A stretch of DNA of 64,000 bases, taken from assembly GCA_040285855.1 (NCBI GenBank), contig JAUFOQ010000013.1, forward strand, positions 806,001 through 870,000. The letters run 5' to 3'. Made by a program: the position numbers and the translations under genes. The DNA is from Eukaryota sp. GEM-RC1. Its lineage: Eukaryota. Shown piece by piece: positions 1 through 62,562 of this stretch (position 1 is the first letter of the stretch; the number at the start of each line of letters is the position of its first letter). A model generated the notes under the pieces. That model searched no databases. It was not told the DNA's origin and was given only the letters and a program-made list of their open reading frames with translations.

Positions 1-845
1 TTTTTTAACAAACATGAGATCATTTAAAGTACTTGCTTGTTCAATAAATCCTACATCAAAGTTAACTTCTATAAAGTCATTTCCAGCAATAACTACTGAC
101 TCTACTTGAAAATAGGATCCTAAATAGGTCAACTCAAAAGCATTTTCAGTAGTCAATTTGATTTTACTTCCACTCAAAAACTCAAAAAAGCTTTGAAAAC
201 TTTCTCTTGGCACCTTCAGCATATCATCAAAGCTAAGTTCTTGTTCATTTGAATCAGCCCATTGACTAGTCCAAAGGTTAGCAAAGTACTTAGAATAACA
301 ACATAAGTGAAGCCTATTTGTTTTAGCAATATAGTCTTTATACTTCAGTTGCACTTCATGAGGAGTTTCCCTCTTCAACTTTTCTAGAATAGTTGATCCT
401 TGGAGAGAGAAGACTTTGTTACTAGACTGTAGTCCCTTTAGTTGAAGGTTTGTGCAGTGGGTGATCAAAGGAGTGTACTTCAAGAGTTTTGCGATCACAT
501 GAATGTCAAAGAGATTGGTTTCGTTGATGTCTAAAGGAAAGCCGTACATGGACAACATAATGGCTTCAAAGATCGAGGGATCTTCAACCATTCCTGAAGA
601 GTTGATTTCAACGTGATCATGGCGATCTAGTTTCTCAAGGTATTTGGAAAAGAGAACGACAATGGAGAAGTGACAGTGGAACTCTAAGTCCTCGAACTCA
701 ATAACACAGTCAGTGAGATGATTGTTGGATCGGAGATATTGTAGCTGTTCGATGGCTTCCTTGGCAAAGTCAGATATGGAGAGCATTTGGGGGAGATTTC
801 ATACAACTTTGACTTTGTAATTATGCTCTCTCGAAGACATATCAT
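1..845 (-). CDS. BTB-BTB protein, copy 1 (runs off the left edge; paralog of the BTB-BTB-CC-LRR gene at 5623-8439); one frameshift near 768
   Basis: Translates to MICLRESIITKSKLYEISPK..LRSNNHLTDCVIEFEDLEFHCHFSIV (BTB1) and HEVQLKYKDYIAKTNRLHLCCYSKYFANLWTSQWADS (BTB2). It has GGCAAAGT where the paralog has GGCAAAAGT. The start codon is uncertain. Confidence 0.75.
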
Positions 846-2102: not shown

Positions 2103-2351
2103 TTATATCGCAGCTGTAACAAAACAAATATAATCGAATTCAATGACAAAAAGGTCTCCATCGCGAGAGGCTTTGACCAGGTCCTGCAGAGCATAGTTTT
2201 CTGTCCTCTCTTCAAGACAATCGATACGGCAAAGGGGACATTGATTCAAGGACTCTAAACATACAGAGCAACAAGTATGTCCTTCGCAGCAGATTAGGAG
2301 GGGAACACGGTTAGAGAGATTGAACGATTCACAACAAACGAAGCAGTCCAT
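2103..2351 (-). CDS. Stand-alone RING-HC mini-ORF (82 aa), a truncated derivative of the RING-kinase family; may be a pseudogene
   Basis: MDCFVCCESFNLSNRVPLLICCEGHTCCSVCLESLNQCPLCR..ALQDLVKASRDGDL matches the N-terminus of 45873-47807. Homology stops at about 2152, just before the kinase. Confidence 0.6.
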   Translation of the reverse strand: MDCFVCCESFNLSNRVPLLICCEGHTCCSVCLESLNQCPLCRIDCLEERTENYALQDLVKASRDGDLFVIEFDYICFVTAAI

Positions 2352-5622: not shown

Positions 5623-8439
5623 TCAATCAAAACATAAGAAGTTAACAATAGAGAATTCGCATGAGATCCGATTATTTGAGATTCTTTTGATGAGTTGTTC
5701 AGTCTCAGAGTCAATAGAGTTACTCCAAAGAATAATCTGAGTAACAGTGGAATTGACCTTCAAAGCATCAGCCAATGCAATGGCACCCTCATTACCAATA
5801 GAGTTATTCATAAGATATATCTCAGTAACAGTGGAATTCACCTTCAAAGCTTCAGCCAGTGCAATGGCACCCTCATTACCAATAGAGTAATACTTAAGAT
5901 CAATTTTAGTAACTGAACCATTCCTCATTTCTTCCAAAACCTGGCTCAATACTACAGTACTATTGTCCCTTTTTTTAGCTAATAATTGTGAAAATTTGTT
6001 CTTTGGCTTTGGAATTAAACCTTGAGAACTTCTAGAAAGAGGTGTTGCAATAGAGTTTTCACAAATTTCATTATTAGCAGGGTTGGATTTAAGACGTTCA
6101 ATTTCTTCTCTTAAAGAACGATTGTCAGTTTCCAAATTTAAAATTTGTTGACTAGAAGACTTTTCCTTGACGTGAAGCTCATTGTTTAGAGTAGTAATAC
6201 TTTGAATTTTTTGGAAAAGTTTAGAATTTTCATTTTTCAAGTTTAAAACTTCATCAGTGAGGTTCTTCTTTGCTCCCACCAGTTCGGTCCTCAACTTTGC
6301 CACGTCAGCAGTGAGTGTGGCAGTCGATGATTGGATTTGAAGAGGGACCATTAGGAGTAAGAATCTGCTCAGTAAAGGTTCAATATCGACGTCATCAAGT
6401 AAATCAGACAAAGTCTCAGAAATAACGTTTACAGTCTTTAAAGTACACGTTATGGATTTCAAACAACTATCGAACTGTGACATTGTCCAATCAGATTTTA
6501 AATTCTGCCAGGAATTACACAAACATTTGGCAAGAAAAACAGAATCAACATTAAAAGAAGAAAGAATTTCAAATATTTCTGGAGTTACTTTGATACCATT
6601 ATTATCAGTAGATTTGATTGATCTGAGACGTTGTTCATGTTTTTTAACAAACATGAGATCATTTAAAGAACTTGCTTGTTCAATAAATCCTGTATCAAAA
6701 TTAACTTCTATAAAGTTATTTCCAGCAGTAACTACTGACTTTACTTGAAAATAGGATCCTAAATAGGTCAATTCATAAGCATTTTCAGTAGTCAATTTGA
6801 TTCCACTTCCACTCAAGAACCCAAAAACTTTTGAAAACTTTCTACTGACACCTTCAGTATATCATCAAAGCTAAGTTCTTGTTCATTTGAATCAGCCCAT
6901 TGACTAGTCCAAAGGTTAGCAAAGTACTTAGAATAACAACATAAGTGAAGCCTATTTGTTTTAGCAATATAGTCTTTATACTTCAGTTGCACTTCATGAG
7001 GAGTTTCCCTCTTCAACTTTTCTAGAATAGTTGATCCTTGGAGAAAGAAGACTTTGTTACTAGACTGTAGTCCCTTTAGTTGAAGGTTGGTGCAGTGGGA
7101 GATCAAAGGAGTGTACTTTAAGAGTTTTGCGATCACATGAATGTCAAAGAGATTGGTTTCGTTGATGTCTAAAGGGGAGCCGTACATGGACAACATAATG
7201 GCTTCAAAGATCGAGGGATCTTCAACCATTCCCGAAGAGTTGATTTCAACGTGATCATGGTGATCTAGTTTTTCAAGGTATTTGGAAAAGAGAATGACAA
7301 TGGAGAAGTGACAGTGGAACTCTAAGTCCTCGAACTCAATAACACAGTCAGTGAGATGATTGTTGGATCGGAGATATTGTAGCTGTTCGATGGCTTCCTT
7401 GGCAAAAGTCAGATATGGAGAGCATTTGGGGGAGATTTCATACAACTTTGACTTTGTAATTATTAGACCTTGGAATCGGATCAACTTCGGATCGGATAAT
7501 CCGATCGGATTTCTCGGATCGGAGCGATTTTGTTGCTTTTGCTCGGATTCCGATTCGGATCGGATTTATCCTACCAGATCCGAAATATCCGATCGGATTT
7601 CTAATGATTTTGATACTGTTGTAGACCCAAAATACATTTGATTACTTTACTAATACTAATATAGATACATTAGTTGGTATCATTTAGTTATTATTTTTAC
7701 AAAAGTAATTACTGAATTTCACTGTATTGATCGTAAACCCCGTTTCTGTACTAATATTACTAGTTATATAAAACGATTGATTTGAAAATCTGACTGTTGA
7801 ACATGATTACGACTACGTCTGTCTCAAATGTCCTACTATTCCGCTGTAGATGTTCTCTCGGATTCTGCCGCCAGCAACATCGAAGTCCATTAATTTGGTG
7901 GAAGAGAAATGAAAGCACTTATACCAAACTTGCTCGAATCTTCTTTTATTGTTCAATACATGCATCATCTGTACCATGTGAAAGACTCTTTTCCCGTGTT
8001 GGGTTAATTGTGTCCAAAAAATGAACATCTCTCAAATGTGACACAGTTCAAGTATTGGTTTTACTCAATTCATGAACAAAACTTGGATTTATGGCTGATG
8101 ATAGACTTTTCCCAGGAGATGCCAATTAATGTTACTTTTTGACTAATAAAACTTTGTAGAATTTTGTTATCCTTCCTTTTACAAAAATGAAGTTCATAGC
8201 ACGTCGTTTCTTTATGGAACTAAAACAGTAATCTTACTGCAAAAACTAAAACAGAATTAATGAAATGTATTAGATAAAAAGGTCAATCCGATCGGATCTT
8301 TCGGATCGGATTCGGATATTGAACACCAGGATCCGGATCGGATTCAGATTTCGATCAGTCAGATCCGGATCGGATCGGATTTGAGATAAAAAATCCGATT
8401 CCAAGGTCTAGTAATTATGCTCTCTCGAAGACATATCAT
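5623..8439 (-). CDS. BTB-BTB-coiled coil-LRR protein, interrupted near its start by a hAT insertion (7464-8410) and a frameshift at ~6825
   Basis: Joins ORFs 6813-7484 and 5623-6816. Two BTB domains, coiled coil LTDEVLNLKNENSKL.., and three 28-aa LRRs (SIGNEGAIALAEALKVNSTVTEIYL). The ATG at 8439 corresponds to 845 in copy 1. Confidence 0.8.
7464..8410 (+). mobile_element. Non-autonomous hAT DNA transposon, 947 bp
   Basis: 17-bp TIRs TAGACCTTGGAATCGGA / TCCGATTCCAAGGTCTA and a perfect 8-bp TSD GTAATTAT (7456-7463, 8411-8418). The empty site is at 817-824. TCGGA subterminal repeats and a hAT dimerisation relic PLIWWK..LAR..ASSVPCERLFSRVG are present. Confidence 0.97.
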
Positions 8440-9706: not shown

Positions 9707-9955
9707 TTATATCGCAGCTGTAACAAAACAAATATAATCGAATTCAATGACAAAAAGGTCTCCATCACGAGAGGCTTTGACCAGGTACTGCAGAGCATTG
9801 TTTTCTGTCCTCTTTTCAAGACAATCGATACGGCAAAGGGGACATTGATTCAAGGACTCTGAACATTCGGAACAACAAGTATGTCCTTCGCAGCACATTA
9901 GGAGGGGAACGCGGTCAGAGAGATTGAACGATTTACAACAAACGAAGCAGTCCAT
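9707..9955 (-). CDS. Stand-alone RING-HC mini-ORF, copy 2
   Basis: MDCFVCCKSFNLSDRVPLLMCCEGHTCCSECSESLNQCPLCR, with the same truncation point and tail as 2103-2351. Confidence 0.6.
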   Translation of the reverse strand: MDCFVCCKSFNLSDRVPLLMCCEGHTCCSECSESLNQCPLCRIDCLEKRTENNALQYLVKASRDGDLFVIEFDYICFVTAAI

Positions 9956-10591
9956 GTTGAGAAGTGATTCAATTTCAATTTTGGATAACTCTGTCAACGA
10001 GTTCTTTGTCAAAAAGAAGGTCTTATACAACAATAGCTGTGGTCTTGGTAAGAAGATTAGAATTGTTTAAATCGTATACACAATCTCTTTTGATCTAAGA
10101 ACTACAAAGTTCTCGAAATAATTGGTTTCTGGAATGTGCGTATTGACCGTCCTGAGTTTTACGAATGTAGTTTTCTTCAACTATCACTTACACACCCATC
10201 CATCCTATCTAATGATTGTCTCATTATGTCAATTCTTCTCTATCATTTTTAAGGCGTACTGACTGACTTTTTTTATATCACGTGTCATTTTTTCAAAAAC
10301 AGAGCATGTTTAAGAAGAAACAGTTAGTAACAAGTGTTACAAAGATTACAAATCTGGCACAATGTTTGTTTTCGAAAAATGTTTCTGTTGTATGCGCTTT
10401 CATCCATGTCTTTTAACTCAAAAAAGACAAAAGTTCTTCTCTAAATTTCCAATGAATTTGTAGAACCTTTCAAATTTGGTCTAATCTTCATACTCGCATT
10501 ATTCATGTCTCTGCTGTTATCATTCTTATGACTTTTATTTAGAAGAAGTATTTTATTACAAAAAATAGCACACTGAGAATTTGCCACGCAG

Positions 10592-19680: not shown

Positions 19681-22600
19681 CTAATAAGGATAATAATGAT
19701 GTTCATCATCAATGGAGTACGCTGCAAAAATGTGATCCCAGATCTTACTGTCATTCGAGTCTACTTTACTGACAATGGCGAGAGGAGTCTTACCTTTGAG
19801 ATACTCGTACATTGGATCAAAGTGACGACCATTCTTGAGAGGGCAAATAAGCAGTGCAATACCAAGTTCCGTAGCCTTGAGTGCAATATCATCAAATCTA
19901 GATTCCCAAGTACGACCATTAGGATCTTGAGGATGATTGTCTTCACAACCACAGTTAAATCTCTTACCATGATTAGGTGCATCCCCAATAACAAAGATAA
20001 TTCGATGACCATTAGGCCATTTGGCTTTTAACATTTCATCTAATCCAGTACAGATATCTTCTGCAACGTCATCACCTCCATCAGCAACAACTCCTCCAAT
20101 GGCATTCGAGAGAGCTGTCGCATTACCAAAAGGAATAAGTTCAACAGGAACTGAATCTCCAATATCACGATAGGCACAAACTAAGATTAATTAAAAAAAG
20201 AATAAACATACATGAAAAGAAACTGTTAATTTCTTGGCATCATACCCCATTGCACCAACAGACCGGGAGATATACTCCTCCAAGCCTTTCGCCATTTCTC
20301 TGATTTGATTTGCAGTTTGTTGAATATTCATGGAACTAGTGGCATCGAAAACAAAAGCTGCATATAAAGATAGATCGAGACGATGTTTGACATAATCAGC
20401 ATCAGAAATTCTGACAGCCAAGGAAAAAGGACCATCACTTGATTTACTTGGAAGTAGAAGAAGTTGGATTACTAGGAGGTTTGTCAATACTAACTTTCTT
20501 CCCCTTAGGATGAATCACGTCAGTAGACTTCTTATCAACAGGACCAGCCCAAACCTTTCTTGGAGTAATTCTTTCCTTAGAGGTGTTAAGCTCAATGTGA
20601 GTGAAACTTGCGTAGGAATAGCTACTACCACTTTCGAGTTGAACTTTGATTTGAGAAGTAATGTTGCTAGAGTTTCGGAGGTTCTTGGAAATAATAAAAA
20701 TTTTGTCAAATTTAAATTCTAACCCATCATCAATTCTTTCAATACAAATATCACCTGTCACCTTATTGATCTTAATTCCAAAACGAATATACTTATCGGC
20801 CATTCTCTTTACAAAGTACATTCGAAGTGTTGCTAGAGTTGGAGTATCAGGATTTGGATTAGCAGATTCGTAAACAGATACATATCCATTGTTAAAACTA
20901 AAAGTGATGGGACATTCACCATTAACTAAACTAAGGATGAAGCTACCTGTAGCATTGACATCGAATCTAATGCACAATTCACGTTCAAAGGAGCACGATG
21001 CCATTAAGTAAGCCCATCGATGATGACTCTGAGGTGTAAGAAGTATGTTGAAACCATACTCTAGTTCCTCTTCGTTGTTATAGCTAGCTTCAATCATTTT
21101 GTTTAGATAATCAGGAGAATCAAAAGAATCTGTTAGAATCAAGAAGTTTGCTTTTCCTCCAGATAGTAGTTCAAGGTCGTGTTTGGCTCGAAGACTTAGT
21201 GTGGCATAGACATTTCTCGGTATGACAACATGTTCGACATCACTAAAGGAAATCTTACTCGGAAGATGGCACTCAATAGTGAAATGATTATCTGGTTTCA
21301 GAATTGATTGAACAAATATCTCCTTTGTAACTGAAGAGATATTAAACGCTGACAGGTCCACCTTCGAATGTTCTTTCATGTTCTTAAGAGAGTGGCACAT
21401 ATCAAGAGCAACAGTTTCAGCAGCACCGTTGACTCCAAAATTCTGAACTAATTTGTAATAATTGTTCTTTTTTTCAGTTTCATCAGTGGGAATTCTAATG
21501 TAAGGTCTAAATGGAACTGCTCCATCATGAGTATAATACTTAGTAGCAGCAGTGACATGAAGATAAGTAGAAGGATGCTTCGTAACAGAAGACTTAAAGA
21601 TAACAGCAATCGGTCCATAGTGAACGTTAGTATTAGGTCCTAGAATTGAAAAGACTGTACGATCAGTACGAAGATCTTTATCAACATGGAATCCGATTCC
21701 TACCTTAGCTCCAGATTCGTCAGGAGCACCAACTAAGTGATTCAAATCAAGAGCTGCTTGAGCAATGTTCTTAGCTAAACGACCGAGTTCAGAGCGTTCT
21801 TCCTTTGAGACATCAGTACATTCCATTAGAACACGCATACCATCTGGACAAGTCATTGTCTTATTCAACAAACCATTCATTTCTATCTCAGTAGAGACAG
21901 CTAAGAAATCAGCAGCTTGTTCTTGGTTGGAGTAGTTTACTAATTGATAATGAGAGGCGGCAACAATCTGACGGACTTTAGCAGGGTCTGCAAGCTTGGT
22001 CTTCATCATATTAAGCGAGTAGAAAGCTCCATGAGTTAGACAAGATTCAAAGGTTTCTGGTTTAATTCGATGAACTGGACGGAGTCGCATTAACAATTCC
22101 CCAAGAGCTTTAATGTTTCTAGGTGTAGGAGATTTGGGAAGGAGTGACTGTAAACGGCGCTGATTGCTGACGTAATCTAACTTGCTTTCACCAGAAAACG
22201 TTCCAATATCAGGCATTAAGTTTCCCAGTATTTCAAATAATCTGATATTTCGATGAGAATATCTACGAACATGATCCAAGTCTCCTCTGTTTCTACAAGA
22301 AGCTCCATGACTACAAGGAGGACGGAATTCCAAAACACCTGGATGACTAAAGGTGTTCAAATGAATCTCGTCAACTGACTTACAACTGGTACCATCAGGA
22401 CATGGCTTCCGTTCTAAATGAGCGAACTTCTCCATGTGACTTTTAGTTGTCATCTCCGTACATTGGAAACCTCGAGGACAGACAATCTTTTCAGATGCAG
22501 AAGAACTGAAAGGATCATCAGCCAAATGGATTGGATGGGTGACGTCAGCTTGATGAAGGACAGTGAGGTCAACACAGTTAGGATTAGGGCAAGTCAAATG

Positions 22601-25600
22601 GTCATGATGTTTGAATTTAAGACAGTCTGCATCACGGCAATTATGACCTTTTTCACAGATCGGACGATGCCAGAAGCTTTCTCGATGATCAGGAGTTTGG
22701 TCCTTGCAGAGACTTCCGTGATGACAGGCTAGTGCATGAGTAAAGCTCAAATCATGACTGGAATCACGTTGATGTAGTCGGCAAGTGGAGAACTGTCGAC
22801 AAACAGATGGATGACGACACAACCACGAGTGAGTGTTGATCTGTTTTCTCTTACACTTATCAGACAACTCACATCGGTCAAGATGAAAGTAAATTTGTTT
22901 ATGCTCTTCATCATTAAGCTGAGTACATCTTCCAAAGAGGTCAGGACATGGAATGAAGGAGGTTGGAGTCATTAGAGGAGAACAAGACCGATCCATTCCT
23001 CGTCTGAATCTGGTAAAACTTTCTACATCACCTACTACACTGAAGATAACTCGTTGGAAGAACCTACCATAGATTTGTTCCATGAAACCCAGAATAGCCA
23101 TGACTGACTCAATGGGGTTTCTAAAAGCACCACAACCCAAAGGGGATATGATTAAATGAGTAACATTGTGACGAATAGCAGCAAGGAAGATTGAAACCCA
23201 ACGATTAAAGGTAAATTCGAATTGTTCCTTATTCAGGAAATCATCAAAACGAATTTCTGACATGGGTTTAATATCAGGACGTTCAATAGCAGCTGAAGAG
23301 ACAACATCAATAGTATAAGGTCGAGAAAGAGTCACAAGACCATGTGATTCAGAACTTTTGAAAATTTGAATATTTTCAGAAACAATTACATCAATGTCAC
23401 TACTTGACCAAGGATATTTGACAGGAGGAATTCTACTTCCTTCAACATTAGAAGAATCAAGAGCATAAGCCAAAGTACTCCTGCTAAACAGACTTTCTTC
23501 TTGAGCACTAGCTCCAGTTCTATACCCTCCTCCAGGAGAAACTTCAGTAGCCATGTTAAGACAAGCAATCTTTACTCCAGGATCAGTACCATATTCGTTG
23601 ATGAAATCAATGGCGACTTCAAAGCAATCCTTATTTAAAAAATCAAATGGACCAGGACCAGGGTCTGGAGCGGGGGGTCTTTTGAAAGCCCTACGAATAG
23701 AGGAGTTTGAGTACACGTGATTAGTGATTTGATTAGTCCTTAAAGCAATCGTTTGGGAACTGTTTTCACCTTCTCTAACGTAAGAATATTGACCTCTTGA
23801 ACAGCAGTACAAGGTATTCAGTTGAGCAATGACCAACAAGAATCTGTAGGGGTGATTGTTACGTAAGTCACGATTACATTCTTTGAGAGCAGAAAGATAA
23901 GGTGCAAAAGAATGATCATTAAGCTGAATCCAAGATCGGTAATTAGAAATGGCTATTTGCTCGTAGCCACCAGTTCTGCTTCTCATTTCAGATGCAAAGA
24001 CCTTAGGGAAAGGTGAATTAGGAGAAAACATCTGTACTACTACCTTAGTTAAAGGATGGCCCTTGATAACGATTTCGTTAGGCCAAGTAGGAGTAGTACT
24101 AGTCCAGAGCAACACGTGTCTTTTAGTAGGATCAGTAGTCAAATAAGAGTTCTTTCTAACACAAGGATTAGCGGCAGATAGAGCAGCTAGATAATCATCT
24201 GTGGGTTCTTCAAAAGGATAGTAAACAACTTCGAGGCAACTAGAGTGGTGAGCGTAGTGTTGGAAGGGAAGGACAGTGAAATGAAACTTGTCTATTTTAC
24301 CAGCGTAAAGACAATCAGCAGTAGATCTTCCTTTAAAAATAGACTCAGGAGAAAAGACAGTAGATGATAAGAACAAAAGTTCAAGATTGTAAAATCTGTT
24401 GTTGACGTGATGTTTGACAATATCAACATTAATGGTTTCCTTATCAATGTTGTTTCTAATATCTCTAGAAACCCTATCAACTATATTTGAAGGAACAAAC
24501 ATGACAGTAGCCCGATAACATCCTTTGAAGGTTGTAATGGTCCTGGATTTCGTATTAATTGTAGCTTCAGCTCCATTAACTATTAATTCTTGTAGAAGTT
24601 CAAGACCTATAGCACAAGACACAGTGACACGAACGTGGACAATGGAATCCAAAGACTCAAGAACCTCTACTGCATGGTCAGCACAATCACTTAAGGTTTT
24701 GGTTAAGTAAACGTCAACTTTAGAAGTAAGAGCAGCACCCTTAAAGTCCTCTATTCGCATGAAGAACTCAAACGAAATGGAATAGAACTCTTCAGATCTT
24801 TCAGTTGGCACGTGATCATCAAACACTTTGACTCTCAGAGACTTGAATTGTTCAGACAGAGAGGGATTTAGAGGGCGAATTGTAGAGACGATTGGAGAGT
24901 CTCTCTGGGCAGCTAATCGTTCGATATCATTGGTATGTACGAACATTAGAGGGTGTGAGGGAGAAGTAGCTGGGACAGTATTAGTATTTAACAACTTTGA
25001 TTGGTTATGATGGAGCTGCTGCAGATTAATCTTTCTCAAATCACCACTTCCACTAGTCAAAGCCATTTTGTTATTCTTAAGTTGTTCAGACGGTCGGAGA
25101 TTAAAAGATTCTAAAATTTCAATTATTTGTACAATTTTGGGTCGTAGAATTGGGTCGGGGTTTAGACACCTGTTAATTATACTACACAATACATCCGGAA
25201 TTGACCTATTAAAGGACAAAGCTTTGTCACGATATTTAGCTCCCATTACAGCATATTGGCTCATTCCTTCAAATGCTTCCTTGTTTTGGAAACAATTCAT
25301 ATAACATGATTCCAATAGAGTAAATGTCACTTTGCGGGGTCATTTGGTTGTCAAACTGCTCAGGAGCAGCATAGCGTACAGTCATTGCATTGTTTCTTGG
25401 AACTGTTGTGGTTGATTCAATGTTCCGAGAAGTTCCGAAATCAGCAATTCTTACTCTATTATCCACCAATAAAACATTTCCAGGTTTGAGATCGCCATGC
25501 ACAACTGCTTTACTGTGGAGAAAGCTAACACCTTGACAGAGTTGTTTCGCATAATCGACAGTGAGAAAGGAGAATGAGTTGGGGGAGGGAAGAGAAGAAG

Positions 25601-26052
25601 TAGCTCTTTCCATGACAATTCCGATCCTATCCTCCCAAAAGCAGAGACCATAGACACGGAGAACAGCAGGGTGATTTAGTTGAATAAGAAGGCTCATCTC
25701 CTTCTGGAGCTTTAGTCTTCCTTTTTCAGTAAGTGATATCATTTTAACAGCAACAGGAAGTTGGAACCACTCTGCAGCATAGACAACTGCAAAACCTCCT
25801 TCATCGATCTTGTTAAAAAGCTTGATTTGATTCGATGGGATTTCAGGACAGAGATCGCCATTACGAGCAGCTTCGATGAGCTCTCTAAGAGAATAATTAG
25901 GTTTTTTTAACAAGGGGGGAATCTGTGCGGCATATTGGACATTGTTTCAAAGAGGATGCACATTGAGCACAAGCGGTATGTCCGGAGTCACATAAAAGTA
26001 ACGGTAAGCGCTGAGAAAGATTGAATGGCTTACAGCAGGAGAAGCAATCCAT
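19681..26052 (-). CDS. Giant multidomain protein (~2,100 aa): RING-HC, TKL-type kinase, unknown region, bacterial-type PARG (DUF2263/TIGR02452), PBZ-like CCHH array, putative ART-fold domain, beta-rich domain, VWA
   Basis: ATG at 26052 gives MDCFSCCKPF..CDSGHTACAQC..CPICR. After +1 at the A7 run (~25902) come kinase motifs EGGFAVVY, VAVK, HGDLKPGN, DFG, APE. A +1 at ~25290 leads into the 1628-aa ORF with LNMA..PGGGYRTGASAQEE and LGCGAFRNP. A +1 at ~20450 leads into VWA (FDATSSM, YRDIGD, GGDDVAED, IGDAPNHG), with an intron at ~20181-20211. Confidence 0.8.
20181..20211 (-). other. Short intron (27 or 31 nt) in the VWA region
   Basis: Minus strand reads GTATGTTTATTCTTTTTTTAATTAATCTTAG. The GTTTAT donor (27 nt) restores SFHVFCAYRD directly. 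The GTATGT donor (31 nt) needs one more base upstream. Confidence 0.7.
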
Positions 26053-28152: not shown

Positions 28153-29454
28153 ATGCAAAGATTTTTCGAACCCAAACAGTCAAGGTTTTCTGAACCTAGA
28201 CAGAAGAAAGCCAACACTGGTCTGTCATTGAACAGCGTCCCTACTTGGAAGGACTACTCTCACAACATTCCATGTCCCAAGAATCCTCATTTCCCCGTAA
28301 ACGACGATATCAACTCCAAAGTGTCTCTGTGGAAAGGCGATTCCACTGCTCTCAAAATCGATTCCATTGTCAACGCTGCTAATCAATCTCTTCTTGGAGG
28401 AGGTGGTATCGATGGCATTATCCACACCAAAGCAGGTCCTAAACTGCGTAGATTTTGCCAGACTCTTAATGGCTGCAGAACTGGTTATACTAAGAAATCT
28501 CCTGGCTTTAACCTTCCTTGCCAATACATTCTTCACACCGTTGGTCCCATTGGTGAACGTCCTGCAGAGCTACATTCCTGTTACCAAACCATTCTTGAAC
28601 ATATTGATGGGGATACAATCCGATCTACCGCCTTTTGTGGAATTTCTACTGGTATCTATGGGTATCCTATTAACAGTGCTGTTCACATTGCTCTTAAAAC
28701 TGTTAGGGAATGGTTGGAGATCCCCGAGAATTTGGAGAAAGTTGATCGTTTGGTCTTTGTAGTGTTTGATCACGCATCTGTTGAGGCTTATCATCGGTTT
28801 TTCCCAATCTACTTCCCTCATTGCATTGATACTAATCCTGTAGAAGACTCTGATAGTCAAAGTGATGAAGAAATTGAAGAAATTGTTGCTAGTTGCTCGT
28901 CATCTGATGACCTGATCACACAGTCAAGTGAAGAATCAGCAGAGGAAGTAATAGAAGAAGGTGTTGAAGACAGACATGAAGAAGAAGCAGATTGTGAACA
29001 ATTTGTAGTTGAAGAGAAAATGGAATCAGCTGAAGTTGATCTTGTTGAAGACAAAACTGAACAAGAAGCAGATTGTGTACAACCTGTAGTTGAAGAGAAA
29101 ATGGAATCAGCTGAAGTTGATCTTGTTGAAGACAAAACTGAACAAGAAGCAGATTGTGTACAACCTGTAGTTGAAGAGAAAATGGAATCAGCTGAAGTTG
29201 ATCTTGTTGAAGACAAAACTGAACAAGAAGCAGATTGTGTACAACCTGTAGTTGAAGAGAAAATGGAATCAGCTGAAGTTGATCTTGTTGAAGACAAAAC
29301 TGAACAAGAAGCAGATTGTGTACAACCTGTAGTTGAAGAGAAAATGGAATCAGCTGAAGTTGATCTTGTTGAAGACAAAACTGAACAAGAAGCAGATTGT
29401 GTACAACCTGTAGTTGAAGATCAAGAAGAACCAACAATGATGTCCGATGAATAA
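28153..29454 (+). CDS. MacroD1/2-type ADP-ribose glycohydrolase macrodomain with acidic tandem-repeat tail
   Basis: VSLWKGDST, IVNAANQSLLGGGGIDGIIH, ILHTVGP and ISTGIYGYP. Confidence 0.92.
   Translation: MQRFFEPKQSRFSEPRQKKANTGLSLNSVPTWKDYSHNIPCPKNPHFPVNDDINSKVSLWKGDSTALKIDSIVNAANQSLLGGGGIDGIIHTKAGPKLRRFCQTLNGCRTGYTKKSPGFNLPCQYILHTVGPIGERPAELHSCYQTILEHIDGDTIRSTAFCGISTGIYGYPINSAVHIALKTVREWLEIPENLEKVDRLVFVVFDHASVEAYHRFFPIYFPHCIDTNPVEDSDSQSDEEIEEIVASCSSSDDLITQSSEESAEEVIEEGVEDRHEEEADCEQFVVEEKMESAEVDLVEDKTEQEADCVQPVVEEKMESAEVDLVEDKTEQEADCVQPVVEEKMESAEVDLVEDKTEQEADCVQPVVEEKMESAEVDLVEDKTEQEADCVQPVVEEKMESAEVDLVEDKTEQEADCVQPVVEDQEEPTMMSDE
28978..29419 (+). repeat. 81-bp coding tandem repeat (27 aa, ~5.4 units)
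   Basis: Unit EQEADCVQPVVEEKMESAEVDLVEDKT starting at 28978 (diverged), 29059, 29140, 29221, 29302 and 29383 (partial). Confidence 0.97.
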
Positions 29455-30558: not shown

Positions 30559-32020
30559 TTACACATATATTAAACACAATATTCGACCTTTTGAAATATT
30601 TGTAAGAAAAAGTCTGGTTTTTGACTCAATGACATTCTCCAAAAGATTGATGACAGAAACAGTAGAATTAAATCGTACTGATTCAGCTATAATCAATGCA
30701 CCTTCGGTATAAATTGAATTATTTTGAAGATGAACTTCAATTAAAGTAGAGTTTACCTTCAATACTTCAGATACAACCATCGCTCCTTCCACTCCAACAG
30801 AATTCCCACTAAGATCAATCAAAGTAATTGAAGTATTTACCTTTAAAGCTTCTGCAATCGCTTTGGTTCCTGTAACACCAATAGAGTTACACTGAAGATT
30901 AAGTGCAGAAATGGTGGAGTTAACGAATAAGGCTTGGGCTAAAACTGACGCAGCTTCAGGGCCAATGGAGTTTTGAGCGAGATTAATATTAGTAATTGAG
31001 GTGTTTACTTTCAACATTTGTGCCAATGCAATTGCTCCTTCACTACCAATTGAGTTAGACTGTAAGTATATCTCAGTAACTTTGGAATTTTCTGTCAGAA
31101 CTTCAGCTATTGCAGTAATACCTTCGCTACCAATAGAATTATTTCCTAAATAGATGGAAGTAATTGTGGAATTGACTTTCAACGCTTTTGACAACGCTCT
31201 CGCACCTTCAGGTCCAATAGAGTTATTTCCTAAATTTAACGTAGTAATTGACTTATTTTCTTTAACCATTTCAGCCAATGCTATGGCACCTTCAGTACCA
31301 ATATAATTTCGAAAAGATTGACCGAACAAATGTTGGAATTGACCATCAACGCTTCAGCAAAATCAACAATACCTTCAACTCCAATTAAATTCCGTGATAC
31401 ATTGATTGATGAAATACTAGAATTAACCTTTAGCGACTCAGCCAGTATAAAAAACCCCAAACGTCATCAAGATGAACATCCAACCTCTTGAGATGAGGGA
31501 AATACAATGGAGAAGCTTTGTTAAGGAATATTAGGTCACTATTGTACTTTAAAATGATCTTTAGGCCAATAATGATGCGATTCCAGGTGAAGAAGTGTTG
31601 AACATCAAACGAGGTGGAAACGTTTAGGAAAACAGATCTGATCTCAGCTTCGAAAAGAGAAGCAGCTGATGTCAGAAGGAGTATTTGAGAAGAAGCTATA
31701 GGTAAAGTGTTTGCTTGGAAGAACAACTTGACAGCTAGAAAAGTACATTGGAAGAACGCAAGGCTAACAAAGCCAATTTGTTTAAAAGACTGAGCTAGTT
31801 CCAGTAACAGATATTGTAAAGAACGAGGATGCCAGCAGTCTAAATCAAGATATGAGTTCAAACGGTGCCTAAGAAGATGAGTGTTAATTGATAAAAGAAG
31901 GGACTGTTGCAAAGTAATAGTCCTGGGAGAGACATCGTGGAATGTTTTAGACCCCAATAGAGTACATGGTGGTAGCATTGAAATGTAGACCAATGACAGT
32001 TCCGCCAGTTCATAAACACG
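30559..32020 (-). CDS. RI-type LRR protein (~10 diverged 28-aa repeats) with uncharacterised N-terminal domain; frameshifted at ~31450 and ~31313, start unresolved, possible pseudogene
   Basis: Repeats such as LNLGNNSIGPEGARALSKALKVNSTIT. The bridge frame LAESLKVNSSISSINVSRNLIGVEG links ORFs 31430-31993 and 30559-31329. Confidence 0.75.
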
Positions 32021-43559: not shown

Positions 43560-45250
43560 TTCTAATTTAAAAGTGTTTTTCACGTTTCATCGAACTTTCT
43601 TTGAGTATTGGTTTAACAATCAATTTTGATAAGTGTTTTCTTGTTGTTAAGTCTTCGAATGTTTCTAATCTTGGTTTTTGTAATATTCCTATCATCGATT
43701 ATTCTACTCAATGTTTTCGTTTCCTTGGCACGTTTTTGGGAAATTATGAGAAAATTCATTCAGAATTGGAGAGTTCATTAACTACAATTGAAGAAAAACT
43801 AAATCAAATATTATCTTTAGATGTGAGCAAACATGTTTCCTTTGCTATGCTTCAGGTCTGTTTTTCCGGGAAAATTAATCATTTTTTACGTTCATTAGAC
43901 TATTCCCTTACTGAAACATTTGCCAAGAAATTTAATTCTATTAGAACAAATTTTCTCTCTAACTTGGCTGAAATTGATGAGTCTAAGATTCCATTTCATG
44001 CTTTTTATTCTTCTGAATTCGCAGGAGTAGGTTTCACCCATGCAAAAATCATTAGAAAATCTGCTCTTTTAGGAGGTGTTAAGAATTTTATGTTTGAATT
44101 TTTGAAACGGTTTCCCTTGGATGGAATCAATCTGTTGAATTCCAGTAATTGCCGTTGGATTCAATCTGCTAAAGATTTGTTATCATCTTTGTCTCCTGAA
44201 ATGTGGGAATCTTTGTTCCCTGCTCATTTGAAGGAGACTCCTTTAAAAATATTTCATCTCTACCATCTGCTGTATGTAAGCTGCAAAATAAATTGACAAG
44301 GAGTTTGAACTCTTGGACTTTAATAATCGTATTAGCTTGGCTAAAACTAATAGTCCCGAGTTCGCTGCTTTTTTAATCGATCTTTGTAATAGTGGACCTT
44401 CTGGATTTATTTCTCAAATTCCAAAGGTGTATGGATTACATCTATCTGATGAAGCTTGGATGATCAATATGCGTCTTCGTTTGGCTATTTGGCCTGCAAA
44501 TTTATTAAACTATTCAACGTGCTCTTGTGGAGCTAATGGTGTTTTTCGTCATTTAATTAATTGTCGTTATTTTATTCATCTCCGTGCAGTAATTCATGAT
44601 GGTGTACGTGATTCTTGTTATTCCATGTTTAAAGCACATGGTTTTCACTCTAAAGTTGAACCAGTTTTGAATCATCTTTCAGAAAATGAATTTACTGATC
44701 AAAAACGAGGGGATCTACATACTCCGTGGCTTAAATCGAGTCAAGCATTAATGGATTTTACTACAGTAGATGTATGTAACAAATCTTGTGTTAGTAGGAT
44801 ATTAGATTCTTCTTTTAATCCATTAACAGCAGCTGAAAAGCTCAAACACACCAAGTATGACTCTCAAGTAGAAGAATTAAATAGAAACTAATATTCCAAA
44901 TTTGTGTTTCAACCTTTTGCTGTTTCTCTTTTTGGATCTATTAGTCCTGCTGGTGATCAATTTTTCAAGGATTTCGAAGAATTGTGTAAAGAAAAGAAGC
45001 GTAAGTTTAGAATGGCTGAATGGAAAAACCGTATAGTGTTTTCCATATATCGGAATATGCCTTTCTATTTCTCTAGATTAATTGAGAAATTGTACAAGTT
45101 TGGTGTGAAGGTTCATGTAGATAAACGTAATCTTTTACCGGGTGGTGATGAAGTCGTTTGGATTTAATCTTAGTATTATTTGTTTGTTTTTACAATTTCA
45201 TAGTTTGTAGAAAGGTTACCTTATTGGGTGCCGGATAAACATCTCTCTCA
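43560..45250 (+). mobile_element. 5'-truncated RLE-encoding non-LTR retrotransposon (CRE-like), decayed
   Basis: RT end IGLTINFDKC..FRFLGTFLG, then MRLRL, zinc knuckle CSC..HLINC, IHDGVRD, KRGDL, MDFTTVD, AAEKLKHTKY and FQPFAVSLFG. There is a frameshift at ~44250 and an in-frame TAA at 44889. Confidence 0.88.
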
Positions 45251-45872: not shown

Positions 45873-47807
45873 TTAGCTCCTGATCCCATTAGTTGAGATT
45901 CTTCTGATGAGTTGTTTAGTCTTAGAGTCAATAGAGTTACTCTGAAGATCAATCTGAGTAACAGTGGAATTGACCTTCAAAGCATCAGCCAATGCAATGG
46001 CACCTTCATTACCAATAGAGTTGAACCTAAGATCAATCTGAGTAACAGTGGAATTGACCTTCAAAGCATCAGCCAATGCAATGGCACCTTCATTACCAAT
46101 AGAGTTTACCCTAAGATCAATCTGAGTAACAGTGGAATTGACCTTCAAAGCATCAGCCAATGCAATGGCACCTTCAGTACCAATAGAGTTATACCCAAGA
46201 TTAATCTGAGTAACAGTAGAATTGACCTTCAAAGCATCAGCCAATGCAATGGCACCTTCATTACCAATAGAGTTACCCCAAAGATCAATCTTAGTAACAG
46301 TGGAATTGACCTTCAAAGCACCGGCCAATGCAATGGCACCTTCAGTACCAATAGAGTTATTCCCAAGACTAACCTCACTAACAGACCCATTCCTAATTTC
46401 TTCCAAAACCTCCCTCAATCTAGGTTTCAACTTACTCAAATCAATCTCATAATTACTATTAACTTCCCTTTTTACAGGTATTTCTTGTTGTAATTTCTTC
46501 TTTGTCTTTGGAATTAAACCTTGAGAACTTCCAAAAGAAGGTGGTGCAATAGCTTTGTGAGGAATTTCATTATTAGGAGAGTTGAATTTTAAAATTTCGG
46601 ATTTAAGACGTTCAATTTCTTCTCTTAAGAAGTGATTGTCGGTTTCCAAATTTAAAATTTGTTGGTTAAAAGACTTTTCCTTGTCATGAAGCTCATTGTT
46701 GAGAGAAGACAAACTTTGAATATGATTGACAAGTTCAGAATTCTCACTTTTCAAGTTCAAAACTTCATCACTGAGTTCATCAATTTTAGTTTTCAATGAT
46801 TCATTTTCATCAATCAAAAATAATTGGTCATTAATAACACCACCAGCTTCCAAAACATCTAAAGTATTTAAAATATCAGTGATTTCATTAATTCGAGGTC
46901 GTAGTGATGGATCTGGATTTAAACACTTCATTATTATCTCTTTCAAACATTCTGGTGTTGAATCATCAAAAGGTAATGGTTTACCTTGAACTTTTGCTCC
47001 AACAATCTGCATCATTGAAAAACCAGCAAAAGCTTCTCGCCCAGTTAAAAGTTCATATAGTATTAATCCAAGTGAATAAATATCACTAAAAGGACTAGCA
47101 TTTGATTCAAACTGCTCAGGGGCAGCATACTTAGGACTCATGGCATTTGTTCTAGTCACGAGAGTTGTGGCGGCGAGGTTCTTGGAAGTGCCGAAATCCG
47201 CAACTCTGACATGGTCATCGACCAAAAGGACATTGGCTGGTTTTAAATCTCCATGTACAACAGACTTGAGATGGAGGAACTTCACTGCCTGGCAAAGTTC
47301 TTTAGTGTATCTGACAGTAGTTGGAGAGAGAAGACTTGGGGAGGGGGAGGGAGAAGAAGCTAATTCCATGACGATACCAATGGAATTATCAAAGAAGGTG
47401 GTACCGAACACACGTATGACAGCAGGATGGTTGAGATTGAAGAGAAGATTCATTTCTCTCTGGAGTTCTATGCGTCCTTTCTCTGTGAGGGAGACCATCT
47501 TGATGGCGACGGAGAGATCAAACCATTGGGCAGAATAAACGTCAGCAAATCCTCCTTCCGCGATCTTATCTCCGAGGACGATTTGATCTGAGGGAATTTG
47601 TGGGCAGAGTTCTCCATCGCGAGATGCTTTGACCAGGTCCTGCAGAGCATAGTTTACTTTCATCTCTTCAAGACAATCGCAACGGCAAAGGGGACATTGA
47701 TTCAAGGACTCTGAACATTCGGAACAACAAGTATGTCCTTCGCAGCAGATTAGGAGGGGAACACGGTTAGAGAGATTGAACGATTCACAACAAACGAAGC
47801 AGTCCAT
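45873..47807 (-). CDS. RING-HC - TKL-type kinase - coiled coil - RI-type LRR protein, copy A (644 aa)
   Basis: Intact ORF with a C3HC4 RING, EGGFADVY, VAIK, HGDLKPAN, DFG, APE and six LRR units. Confidence 0.93.
   Translation of the reverse strand: MDCFVCCESFNLSNRVPLLICCEGHTCCSECSESLNQCPLCRCDCLEEMKVNYALQDLVKASRDGELCPQIPSDQIVLGDKIAEGGFADVYSAQWFDLSVAIKMVSLTEKGRIELQREMNLLFNLNHPAVIRVFGTTFFDNSIGIVMELASSPSPSPSLLSPTTVRYTKELCQAVKFLHLKSVVHGDLKPANVLLVDDHVRVADFGTSKNLAATTLVTRTNAMSPKYAAPEQFESNASPFSDIYSLGLILYELLTGREAFAGFSMMQIVGAKVQGKPLPFDDSTPECLKEIIMKCLNPDPSLRPRINEITDILNTLDVLEAGGVINDQLFLIDENESLKTKIDELSDEVLNLKSENSELVNHIQSLSSLNNELHDKEKSFNQQILNLETDNHFLREEIERLKSEILKFNSPNNEIPHKAIAPPSFGSSQGLIPKTKKKLQQEIPVKREVNSNYEIDLSKLKPRLREVLEEIRNGSVSEVSLGNNSIGTEGAIALAGALKVNSTVTKIDLWGNSIGNEGAIALADALKVNSTVTQINLGYNSIGTEGAIALADALKVNSTVTQIDLRVNSIGNEGAIALADALKVNSTVTQIDLRFNSIGNEGAIALADALKVNSTVTQIDLQSNSIDSKTKQLIRRISTNGIRS
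45930..46380 (-). repeat. 84-bp LRR-coding tandem repeat
   Basis: Near-identical units encoding NSIG(N/T)EGAIALADALKVNSTVTxIxLxx. Confidence 0.95.
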
Positions 47808-60010: not shown

Positions 60011-60305
60011 CAGGGCTGTCTAAAAATTAATTTCCCCGTAAATTAATTTTTAATTTTGGATCCATAAAATACCGTAAATTGAGAATTACGGAAATTAATT
60101 TACGGAACTCCAACATTACGGAAATTAATTTACGGTTTCAGATTAATACGGAAATTAATTTACGGAACTTGAACGATACGGAAATTAATTTACGGTTTTA
60201 AATTGTTATGGAAATTAATTTACGATTTGGATTGGTTACGGAAATTAATTTATGGTTTAGTCTCATCGCAAAATTAATTTACGGTTCAATTTTTAGACAG
60301 CCCTG
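60011..60305. mobile_element. hAT MITE, 295 bp
   Basis: TIRs CAGGGCTGTCTAAAA / TTTTAGACAGCCCTG and perfect TSD TCACAAAC (60003-60010, 60306-60313). The interior has a 30-bp-period array of TACGGAAATTAATTTACGG. Confidence 0.96.
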
Positions 60306-60627: not shown

Positions 60628-62562
60628 ATGGACTGCTTCGTTTGTTGTGAATCGTTCAATCTTTCTAACCGTGTTCCCCTCCTAATCTGCTGCGAAGGAC
60701 ATACTTGTTGTTCCGAATGTTCAGAGTCCTTGAATCAATGTCCCCTTTGTCGTAGCGATTGTCTTGAAGATAGGAAAGTAAACTTTGCTCTGCAGGACCT
60801 GGTCAAAGCATCTCGCGATGGAGAACTCTGCCCCCAAATCCCCTCAGATCAAATCGTCCTCGGAGATAAGATCGCGGAAGGAGGTTTTGCTGAAGTTTAC
60901 TCCGCCCATTGGTTCGATCTCTCCGTCGCCATCAAGATGGTCTCCCTCACAGAGAAAGGACGCATAGAACTCCAGAGAGAAATGAATCTTCTCTTCAATC
61001 TCAACCATCCTGCTGTCATTCGTGTATTTGGTACCACCTGCTTTGCTAATTCCATTGGTATCGTCATGGAATTAGCTTCTTCTCCCTCCCCCTCCCCAAG
61101 TCTTCTCTCTCCAACTACTGTCAGGTACGCTAAAGAACTTTGCCAGGCAGTGAAGTTCCTTCATCTCAAGTCTGTTGTACATGGAGACTTAAAACCAGCC
61201 AATGTCCTTTTGGTTGACGACCATGTCAGAGTTGCGGATTTTGGCACTTCCAAGAACCTCGCCGCCACAACTCTCGTGACTAGAGCAAATGCAATGAGTC
61301 CTAAGTATGCTGCCCCTGAGCAGTTTGATTCGAGACCTGGTCCTTTTAGTGATATTTATTCTCTTGGATTAATACTATATGAACTTTTAACGGGACGAGA
61401 AGCTTTTGCTGGTTATTCAATGATGCAGATTGTTGGAGCAAAAGTTCAAGGCAAACCATTACCTTTTGATGATTCAATACCAGATTGTTTGAAAGAGATA
61501 ATAATGAAGTGTTTAAATCCAGATCCATCACTACGACCTCGAATTAATGAAATCACTGATATTTTAAATACTTTAGATGTTTTGGAAGCTGGTGGTGTTA
61601 TTAATGACCAATTATTTTTGATTGATGAAAATGAATCATTGAAAACTAAAATTGATGAACTCAGTGATGAAGTTTTGAACTTGAAAAGTGAGAATTCTGA
61701 ACTTGTCAATCATATTCAAAGTTTGTCTTCTCTCAACAATGAGCTTCATGACAAGGAAAAGTCTTTTAACCAACAAATTTTAAATTTGGAAACCGACAAT
61801 CACTTCTTAAGAGAAGAAATTGAACGTCTTAAATCCGAAATTTTAAAATTCAACTCTCCTAATAATGAAATTCCTCACAAAGCTATTGCACCACCTTCTT
61901 TTGGAAGTTCTCAAGGTTTAATTCCAAAGACAAAGAAGAAATTACAACAAGAAATACCTGTAAAAAGGGAAGTTAATAGTAATTATGAGATTGATTTGAG
62001 TAAGTTGAAACCTAGATTGAGGGAGGTTTTGGAAGAAATTAGGAATGGGTCTGTTAGTGAGGTTAGTCTTGGGAATAACTCTATTGGTACTGAAGGTGCC
62101 ATTGCATTGGCCGGTGCTTTGAAGGTCAATTCCACTGTTACTAAGATTGATCTTTGGGGTAACTCTATTGGTAATGAAGGTGCCATTGCATTGGCTGATG
62201 CTTTGAAGGTCAATTCTACTGTTACTCAGATTAATCTTGGGTATAACTCTATTGGTACTGAAGGTGCCATTGCATTGGCTGATGCTTTGAAGGTCAATTC
62301 CACTGTTACTCAGATTGATCTTAGGGTAAACTCTATTGGTAATGAAGGTGCCATTGCATTGGCTGATGCTTTGAAGGTCAATTCCACTGTTACTAAGATT
62401 GATCTTGGGGGTAACTCTATTGGTAATGAAGGTGCCATTGCATTGGCTTATGCTTTGAATGTGAATTCCACTGTTACTAAGATTTATCTTGGGGGTAACT
62501 CTATTGGCTCCAAGACTAAACAACACATCAAAAGAATGTCAAATAATCGGATCACGTGCTAA
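60628..62562 (+). CDS. RING-HC - TKL-type kinase - coiled coil - RI-type LRR protein, copy B (644 aa)
   Basis: Intact inverted paralog of 45873-47807; ATG at 60628. Confidence 0.93.
   Translation: MDCFVCCESFNLSNRVPLLICCEGHTCCSECSESLNQCPLCRSDCLEDRKVNFALQDLVKASRDGELCPQIPSDQIVLGDKIAEGGFAEVYSAHWFDLSVAIKMVSLTEKGRIELQREMNLLFNLNHPAVIRVFGTTCFANSIGIVMELASSPSPSPSLLSPTTVRYAKELCQAVKFLHLKSVVHGDLKPANVLLVDDHVRVADFGTSKNLAATTLVTRANAMSPKYAAPEQFDSRPGPFSDIYSLGLILYELLTGREAFAGYSMMQIVGAKVQGKPLPFDDSIPDCLKEIIMKCLNPDPSLRPRINEITDILNTLDVLEAGGVINDQLFLIDENESLKTKIDELSDEVLNLKSENSELVNHIQSLSSLNNELHDKEKSFNQQILNLETDNHFLREEIERLKSEILKFNSPNNEIPHKAIAPPSFGSSQGLIPKTKKKLQQEIPVKREVNSNYEIDLSKLKPRLREVLEEIRNGSVSEVSLGNNSIGTEGAIALAGALKVNSTVTKIDLWGNSIGNEGAIALADALKVNSTVTQINLGYNSIGTEGAIALADALKVNSTVTQIDLRVNSIGNEGAIALADALKVNSTVTKIDLGGNSIGNEGAIALAYALNVNSTVTKIYLGGNSIGSKTKQHIKRMSNNRITC
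62055..62510 (+). repeat. 84-bp LRR-coding tandem repeat
   Basis: As in copy A, except that the last two units differ. Confidence 0.95.

What the first reader, a model, noticed from the sequence alone, without database searches (positions are those of the whole stretch)
45930..46380. LRR units with frozen scaffold and hypervariable ligand-face codons
Seen: the 84-bp units are almost identical in DNA over NSIGxEGAIALADALKVNSTVT but vary at the x positions of xIxLxxN. Copy A has KIDLWG, QINLGY, QIDLRV, QIDLRF and QIDLQS; copy B adds KIDLGG and KIYLGG; the BTB gene has KIDLKY, EIYLMN and QIILWS. Established: these positions form the concave binding face of LRR solenoids and are the diversified sites in VLRs and NLRs. 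Inference: concerted evolution of the scaffold plus strong diversifying selection, or a targeted diversification/cassette-exchange mechanism generating a receptor repertoire.
Basis: partly seen in the sequence, partly recalled or inferred. Interest (0 to 1): 0.75.

Follow-up and report, generated by a model that had tools for sequence, protein, structure and literature searches.

The report
Protist LRR receptors with hypervariable faces
This DNA, likely from a single-celled anaerobic flagellate, encodes proteins built from near-identical 28-residue repeats in which four residues per repeat vary far more than the rest; those residues are predicted to form a binding surface and were likely diversified by ordinary repeat copying plus selection, as in fungal immune receptors, probably to recognise changing foreign proteins.

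Summary
Variation is concentrated at codons 1, 3, 5 and 6 of each unit (p 0.001); in the model 1-5 lie on the beta-strand. A codon model rejects mere relaxation (omega 4.5, p 3e-4); a divergent array in the same window shows no excess. Paralogues exchange DNA: A and B share a 909-nt identical tract between divergent flanks. Named paralogues are from the metamonad Skoliomonas sp. GEM-RC; 14 of 69 sampled arrays are homogenised, 13 of them behind RING-kinase, BTB or TRIM-like N-termini. Best reading: concerted evolution plus diversifying selection, the Podospora HNWD / PRDM9 / Ectocarpus ROCO pattern, here likely on cytosolic ubiquitin-ligase substrate receptors. A targeted mutator or cassette library is not needed: contiguous-window mutators fit worse, point mutation reproduces the codon pattern, and no free cassettes lie in the window. 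A codon-specific mutator cannot be excluded with 11 units. Not an NLR, VLR or DGR. New variant of a known kind; function untested.

The parts
45873..47807 (-). Gene A, 644 aa: RING-like zinc finger, protein kinase, coiled coil, six LRR units
45873..46376 (-). LRR array of gene A: units A0-A4 (84 bp each) and C-cap unit A5; variable codons 1, 3, 5, 6 of each unit
47685..47801 (-). RING-like zinc finger of gene A (Sina_RING E 6.5e-5, below the curated cut-off)
46878..47573 (-). Protein kinase domain of gene A; VAIK, HGDLK, DFG and APE motifs present
46566..46820 (-). Coiled-coil linker of gene A, 78-86% alike in DNA to the linker of the BTB gene C
46041..46949 (-). 909-nt tract identical between genes A and B (B 61486-62394), flanked by 41 differences in 858 nt and 22 in 168 nt: likely gene-conversion tract
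60628..62562 (+). Gene B, inverted paralogue of A; LRR units 62059-62562; last two units and cap differ from A
5623..7425 (-). Gene C, BTB-coiled coil-three LRR units (5907-5656) with the same frozen scaffold; two frame breaks at T runs (about 7405 and 6820)
1..787 (-). 5' part of a second BTB-LRR gene (P0123, 699 aa, nine LRR units), whose array lies left of the window
30559..31978 (-). Gene D, older divergent array of the same LRR type behind an unannotated domain; internal control without homogenisation or excess at exposed codons

Best explanation
The array encodes a ribonuclease-inhibitor-type LRR domain whose units are likely kept alike by unit duplication and gene conversion, while selection likely favours new residues at codons 1, 3, 5 and 6, which are predicted to form the concave binding face of a cytosolic receptor that would bind foreign proteins and tag them or signal through its RING and kinase. 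Shown: the sequence pattern, its excess over the silent rate, the identical tract between paralogues, the domain order. Inferred: (1) unequal crossing-over and conversion copy the 84-bp unit within and between genes, which erases silent divergence and raises the supply of variants; (2) ordinary point mutations at the four exposed codons are retained, so paralogues 88% alike overall match at only 3 of 24 such residues; (3) the LRR-coil module is moved between RING-kinase and BTB N-termini, with a second frozen scaffold on TRIM-like proteins; (4) because these N-termini are ubiquitin-ligase modules, the LRRs are likely variable substrate-recognition domains in a conflict with intracellular bacteria or viruses. 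I put steps 1-3 at about 0.75 and step 4 at about 0.45.
For: Clustering p 0.001 and scaffold pS 0.11 against pN 0.56 at codons 5-6. MG94 site-class fit on 11 units with a-priori sites: omega 4.5, LRT against omega = 1 p 3e-4 on the ML tree, 1e-8 on a star. Control gene D: omega 0.59, p 0.09. Model: strands cover codons 1-5 of each unit, helices the frozen scaffold; TM 0.85 to the NOD2 LRR. A/B identical tract, 0 of 20,000 permutations reach it; 126 of 253 informative site pairs incompatible among 7 kinase paralogues, neighbours compatible p 0.017. A against P0127: 3 of 24 exposed residues match, 115 of 120 scaffold residues. 47 distinct units of this scaffold: entropy 2.5-3.6 bits at 1, 3, 5, 6, 2.0 at 11, at most 1.3 elsewhere. 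14 of 69 GEM arrays homogenised; 8 carry RING-kinase, BTB or RING-B-box N-termini, 5 begin in those families' linkers, 1 is LRR only; 0 of 41 arrays behind the unannotated domain are homogenised. Metagenome array L001 (20 units) also prefers selection (omega 2.9; local rate 0.88 when both are free). Same four-site pattern in Podospora WD repeats (PMC1805685) and same spacing in Ectocarpus LRRs, sites 15, 17, 19, 20 (PMC3341825).
Against: On the ML tree a codon-specific rate increase fits as well as selection (lnL -286.7 against -286.6; -281.5 against -281.9). pN/pS inside codons 5-6 is only 1.0-1.7. Tree-based omega is biased when units recombine (recalled). L054 prefers a rate increase (omega 1.1, rate 5.3). 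The C-cap is also rich in replacements. The RING match is below Pfam's cut-off. The homogenised arrays form two subfamilies, so the link to ligase-type N-termini rests on few independent events. No ligand, expression or activity data. The assembly of the named organism is Nanopore R9.4 polished with Illumina (PMC11316075), and several frame breaks in the window sit at homopolymers, so the identical tract could in part be a polishing product.
Confidence: 0.68

Rival explanations
1. A dedicated mechanism mutates or replaces the exposed codons (adenine-directed, DGR-like, or short cassette conversion), generating variants within a lineage.
For: A codon-specific rate model fits as well as selection on the ML tree. 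Every variable column of codons 1, 3, 5, 6 includes A, and third positions are fixed (codon 3 T and codon 5 G in 11 of 11). A3 and A4 differ only by two bases, both in codon 6. Silent changes are somewhat raised inside exposed codons (pS 0.22 against 0.11). L054 favours a rate increase.
Against: Contiguous windows fit worse by 1.5 and 5.4 lnL (ML tree) and 7.3 and 13.6 (star) (sites chosen after seeing the data); fourfold sites of L4 and S8 are invariant in 11 of 11. Third bases do change (GTA, TTC, AAA), and E and W occur at position 6, Y at position 5. Point mutation with selection reproduces the third-base pattern (P 0.10, 0.75, 0.72). No free cassette or template copy in 64 kb. Of 29 distinct motifs in 10 genes, the 8 shared ones are confined to the pairs A/B and P0030/P0123.
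Confidence: 0.08
2. Recent duplication and conversion with no drive for novelty: exposed sites are merely relaxed, or each unit's residues are held by position-specific purifying selection while conversion homogenises the rest.
For: These positions vary in any LRR: vertebrate NLRC3 arrays show 13-21% identity there. pN/pS within codons 5-6 is near 1 for A1-A4. Cap codons look near neutral. Many family members are truncated.
Against: omega = 1 rejected; gene D shows what relaxation gives (omega 0.59); the exposed residues are not conserved by position between close paralogues (3 of 24; A and B differ at 6 of 8 such residues in the last two units).
Confidence: 0.17
3. The evolutionary pattern is as described, but the target is not a pathogen: self/non-self recognition, a selfish-element conflict, or hybrid incompatibility among endogenous substrates.
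For: The same signature marks allorecognition (PMC1805685) and PRDM9 (PMC2779102); the named genome is 48% repetitive (PMC11316075); a degenerate retroelement-like ORF lies 1 kb from gene A.
Against: No direct evidence either way; a bacterivorous phagotroph meets intracellular microbes constantly, and TRIM-type ligases act against them in other cells (PMC5758549, passages).
Confidence: 0.25
4. Assembly artefact: residual long-read errors create the variable codons and polishing homogenises the scaffold.
For: Frame breaks at homopolymers elsewhere in the window; G and T runs span codons 4-6 in some units.
Against: A and B are open over 644 codons; changes are in-frame replacements at structurally exposed sites; the pattern recurs in 14 proteins, in two subfamilies on several contigs and in unrelated records.
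Confidence: 0.03

Closest known systems
Podospora HNWD / fungal NLRs with high internal conservation (PMC1805685; PMC4986451)
   Same: Near-identical repeats shared within and between loci; four codons per repeat under diversifying selection on the interaction face; different N-terminal domains on one repeat pool.
   Different: LRR instead of WD/ANK/TPR (no LRR was found in the fungal set of PMC4986451); no NACHT or NB-ARC; N-termini are RING-kinase, BTB, RING-B-box; unicellular metamonad; no function known.
Ectocarpus ROCO and LRR-kinase genes (PMC3341825; PMC11378527)
   Same: LRR repeats with four selected sites of identical spacing (15, 17, 19, 20 there; 1, 3, 5, 6 here) on the concave face; candidate immune role; targeted recombination proposed but unproven.
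   Different: There one exon per repeat and exon shuffling; here contiguous intronless 84-bp units, no ROC-COR domain.
PRDM9 zinc-finger array (PMC2779102)
   Same: Concerted evolution plus positive selection at contact residues of a tandem array (84-bp unit length recalled).
   Different: DNA-binding zinc fingers in a single gene; here a multigene LRR family.
Nematode F-box / BTB adaptor families and TRIM ligases (PMC8120010 abstract; PMC5758549 passages; Thomas 2006 recalled)
   Same: Expanded ubiquitin-ligase modules with fast-changing substrate-recognition domains.
   Different: Recognition domain is a homogenised tandem LRR array; a kinase is fused in genes A and B.
RI-like LRR domains of NOD2, NLRC3, NLRP1, RanGAP
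   Same: 28-residue beta-alpha units; model TM 0.85 to NOD2 LRR.
   Different: Those arrays are old and divergent (scaffold identity about 50%) and follow a NACHT domain or stand in housekeeping proteins.
Lamprey VLRs (recalled)
   Same: Variable concave LRR face.
   Different: No incomplete germline gene, no cassettes in the window, cytosolic, 28- not 24-residue units.

Membership tests
RI-like (NLRC3/NOD2-type) LRR domain | 28-29 residue beta-alpha repeats, LxxLxLxxNxL motif | tested here: met
   Pfam LRR_6 E 1e-25; model pLDDT 80, strand-helix per unit; TM 0.85 to 5irm
High-internal-conservation repeat receptors (HNWD type) | Over 85% identity among repeats over at least 100 aa | tested here: met
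   A1-A4 pairwise 82-96%, mean 88% over 112 aa (counted); threshold from PMC4986451
High-internal-conservation repeat receptors (HNWD type) | Concerted evolution within and between loci | tested here: met
   Distinct full units of A, B, C differ by 2-16 nt, from D1-D7 by 22-36; 909-nt tract; patchwork among paralogues. Only 11 units at DNA level.
High-internal-conservation repeat receptors (HNWD type) | Few interface codons under positive selection | tested here: met
   omega 4.5, p 3e-4; not separable from a codon-specific rate increase on the ML tree
NLR / HNWD family proper | Central NACHT or NB-ARC NTPase | tested here: not met
   None in A, B or C; none in the precomputed domain lists of the GEM-RC1 proteins or among the 25 of 35 families shown for 72 proteins
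VLR | Incomplete germline gene assembled from flanking LRR cassettes | tested here: not met
   A and B are complete ORFs; all unit matches in the window lie in genes A-D. Rest of the genome not available.
VLR | Secreted or GPI-anchored, 24-residue modules (recalled) | tested here: not met
   N-terminal RING-like finger and kinase, highest 19-mer hydropathy 1.25; 28-residue units
DGR | Changes only at template adenines | tested here: not met
   Third-base changes GTA, TTC, AAA; E and W at position 6, Y at position 5
DGR | Template repeat and DGR reverse transcriptase | tested here: inconclusive
   No non-coding unit copy in the window; nearby retroelement-like ORFs have no Pfam match; genome not held
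Ectocarpus-type exon-shuffled LRR (ROCO) | One exon per repeat; ROC-COR domain | tested here: not met
   Contiguous 84-bp units in one ORF; no ROC-COR
RING / TRIM / BTB ubiquitin ligases | RING, RING-B-box-coil or BTB module | tested here: inconclusive
   BTB E 2e-18 and RING plus B-box above cut-off in relatives; gene A finger matches Sina_RING at E 6.5e-5, 23.4 bits against cut-off 29.3
RING / TRIM / BTB ubiquitin ligases | Ligase activity, LRR-dependent substrate binding | not testable with these tools
   Needs biochemistry

The most novel reading that the evidence does not exclude
A free-living metamonad runs a dedicated, codon-targeted diversifier (adenine-biased or short-tract conversion) that rewrites four ligand-face codons of LRR modules fused to ubiquitin ligases, producing new cytosolic receptors within a clonal lineage: an anticipatory immune repertoire in a single cell.
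Probability: 0.08. Interest if true: 0.92.

Novelty: new variant of a known kind. Interest (0 to 1): 0.52.

Why it matters
If right, a free-living anaerobic protist on the branch next to Giardia's group has built a variable-receptor family by the route known from fungal NLRs, PRDM9 and brown-algal ROCOs, but on LRRs fused to ubiquitin-ligase modules rather than to an NLR switch. That gives a concrete, culturable entry to the open question of how unicellular eukaryotes recognise intracellular invaders, and a natural four-residue code on a fixed 28-residue scaffold that can be tested by unit swaps. The evolutionary mechanism itself is known, and milder forms of the pattern occur in other eukaryotes.

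Tried and rejected
Sequencing runs: none was listed. Exact DNA pattern of the scaffold in metagenome contigs: 0 matches. An alignment query for related loci had no conserved stretch; a single-protein query gave 80 loci, none above 63% identity; 18 distinct arrays with 4 or more units, none with a scaffold pS as low as here (lowest 0.19). Earlier notes on this genome or sequence: none. F-box reading of the unannotated N-terminal domain (41 of 72 proteins): an Atlas lead at 0.90 with low shared features, no Pfam F-box hit in 14 proteins at E <= 5, no Foldseek match, best VIA Z 6.2: inconclusive, not used. Strict DGR, VLR cassettes, NLR membership and exon shuffling rejected as in the membership table. 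Unit skipping by splicing: P0001 equals B minus one unit through a GT-AG stretch of 84 nt; no reads to test it, and an annotation artefact is as likely. No complex prediction was run: no candidate partner is known.

Full report
1. What is there. The flagged stretch is the 3' end of gene A (47807-45873, minus strand, 644 aa): a RING-like finger, a protein kinase with its catalytic motifs, a coiled coil and six 28-codon LRR units. An inverted paralogue B lies at 60628-62562, a BTB-coil-LRR gene C at 7425-5623, the start of a second BTB-LRR gene at the left edge, and an older divergent array D at 31978-30559. The best named hits are proteins of Eukaryota sp. GEM-RC1 on a contig of the same length as the one holding gene A; that organism is the soda-lake metamonad Skoliomonas sp. 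GEM-RC (PMC11316075, passages and sections 6 and 17). The assignment of the window to it is inference.

2. Observation. All ten motifs quoted are present. The window holds 15 units of this scaffold but only 11 distinct ones, since A0-A3 equal B0-B3. Among the 8 distinct full units, 16 of 29 extra alleles fall in the five a-priori exposed codons (28, 1, 3, 5, 6); 103 of 98,280 five-codon sets reach this.

3. Structure. A single-sequence model of the LRR domain (pLDDT 80) has strands over codons 1-5 of each unit and helices over the frozen scaffold; it matches the NOD2 LRR at TM 0.85. That residues 1, 3, 5, 6 face the concave, ligand-binding side follows from established LRR geometry; I did not measure it on coordinates.

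4. Selection or mutator. I fitted MG94 site-class models to the 11 units (three terminal units cut to codons 1-9). With a-priori sites, omega is 4.5 at exposed codons and 0.28 in the scaffold; omega = 1 is rejected (p 3e-4 ML tree, 1e-8 star). Gene D gives 0.59. A model with neutral exposed codons but a raised rate confined to them fits equally well on the ML tree (-286.7 against -286.6) and worse on the star (p 0.007). A mutator acting on a contiguous window fits worse in all four comparisons (there the four sites were chosen after seeing the data). Third bases of codons 3 and 5 are fixed and every variable column includes A, which resembles DGR output; the protein data show the same memory (position 5: 11 NNR-only against 1 NNY-only residues in this subfamily, 5 against 14 in the second, Fisher p 6e-4), but simulated point mutation with omega 7 reproduces it (P 0.10, 0.75, 0.72) and exceptions exist. 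The memory shows that variants arose by base substitution from a subfamily-specific ancestor, not from an old shared cassette pool. These tests assume a tree although units recombine, which can inflate omega (recalled).

5. Exchange between genes. A and B differ at 41 of the first 858 nt, at none of the next 909 and at 22 of the last 168 (0 of 20,000 permutations); the last 55 codons carry 17 replacements and 2 silent changes. Seven kinase paralogues are patchworks: 126 of 253 informative pairs are incompatible, with neighbouring sites more compatible than shuffled (p 0.017; amino-acid homoplasy can add to this). The coil-LRR module is shared by kinase and BTB genes. Yet of 29 distinct variable motifs in 10 genes, the 8 shared ones are confined to two near-identical gene pairs; in the second subfamily 2 of 29 are shared between genes. 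Every unit match in the window lies inside genes A-D. Polishing of a Nanopore assembly could contribute to the identical tract; frame breaks at homopolymers show residual errors nearby.

6. The family. From three capped searches (120 hits listed each) and one cluster look-up I gathered 94 proteins of this organism or window; leaving out P0001 (B minus one unit), 74 hold 448 units. This is a sample, and the annotations contain predicted introns within arrays. 14 of 69 arrays with three or more units have scaffold identity of at least 0.85, 13 of them with at most 0.5 at the four sites (which counts P0001 for B). Eight of the 14 carry RING-kinase, BTB or RING-B-box N-termini, five begin in the linkers of those families, one is LRR only; none of 41 arrays behind an unannotated domain is homogenised (highest 0.83). 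A and P0127, 88% alike, match at 3 of 24 exposed and 115 of 120 scaffold residues, which argues against position-fixed function. Elsewhere, 7 of 187 other arrays reach 0.85, among them records named Linnemannia and Acropora. Of 80 metagenome loci, 18 distinct arrays had four or more units, all less homogenised; I fitted two: L001 favours selection, L054 (70% G+C, 9 of 12 units used) favours a rate increase.

7. How it most likely works. Unit duplication and conversion keep the scaffold uniform and multiply variants; point mutations at four exposed codons are favoured; modules move between N-termini. Shown: pattern, rate excess, identical tract, architectures. Inferred: the direction of selection, ligand binding, and the role as substrate receptors of ubiquitin ligases aimed at foreign proteins. 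The last rests on domain logic and analogy (PMC8120010 abstract; PMC5758549 passages; TRIM5 and Thomas 2006 recalled).

8. Known systems. The closest is the Podospora HNWD family: concerted evolution within and between loci and four selected codons per repeat (PMC1805685, abstract and section 9), generalised to fungal WD, ANK and TPR repeats, with no LRR found (PMC4986451, passages). Ectocarpus LRRs have selected sites at the same spacing but are exon-encoded (PMC3341825, abstract and section 22; PMC11378527, abstract). PRDM9 shows the same logic (PMC2779102, abstract). The proteins fail the defining tests for NLR, VLR, DGR and ROCO; VLR and DGR features are recalled. An earlier AI note on a phage LRR array (e1-8340774) reached a similar reading; I did not check it and do not count it as support.

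9. Novelty. Ten library searches listed no paper on this family; the genome paper's main text has no occurrence of 'leucine'; its supplements were not read, and subscription journals are mostly outside the library. Verdict: real, statistically supported, a new variant of a known kind; interest 0.52; targeted diversification 0.08.

Noticed in passing
window 62264-62347 or 62293-62376 (+): Each unit holds AAG|GT, so 84-nt GT-AG stretches can be removed in frame; the public protein P0001 equals gene B minus one unit. Annotation artefact or real unit skipping.
   Followed up: partly
window 20444-25946 (-): Kinase of the same group fused, across a frame break near 25300, to a microbial-type PARG domain and Cys/His-rich repeats (about 1850 aa).
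   Followed up: partly
window 28153-29454 (+): Macro-domain gene with an acidic 81-bp repeat (5.7 copies, 98%); with the PARG fusion, two ADP-ribose-handling genes sit in the LRR cluster.
   Followed up: no
window 43571-45167 (+): Broken ORFs that by eye resemble the 3' part of a non-LTR retroelement with a restriction-like endonuclease (recalled motif); no Pfam match; about 0.7 kb from the end of gene A.
   Followed up: partly
window 31457-31978 (-) and 41 of 72 sampled LRR proteins: Unannotated helical N-terminal domain, confidently modelled (pLDDT 87) with no clear PDB match; weak F-box lead only.
   Followed up: yes
P0060, P0126, P0249, P0257, P0248 (outside the window): TRIM-like RING-B-box proteins ending in LRR arrays, most with a second frozen scaffold.
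   Followed up: partly
window 2152-2452 and 9756-10055: Two truncated RING-kinase 5' fragments inside a 7.6-kb segmental duplication.
   Followed up: no
window about 6820, 7405, 14660, 25300, 31350, 36290: Frame breaks at or near homopolymer runs, likely residual long-read errors rather than pseudogenes.
   Followed up: partly
C-cap units 45873-45956, 62479-62562, 5656-5739: Cap codons 10-27 differ almost only by replacements (8:1, 7:0, 6:1).
   Followed up: partly
window 60086-60284: 30-bp tandem repeat with a fixed core about 350 bp upstream of gene B.
   Followed up: no
L001 558-1145 and 2998-4257; L054 1763-3540: Metagenome LRR arrays with a milder form of the same pattern (20 and 12 units).
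   Followed up: partly
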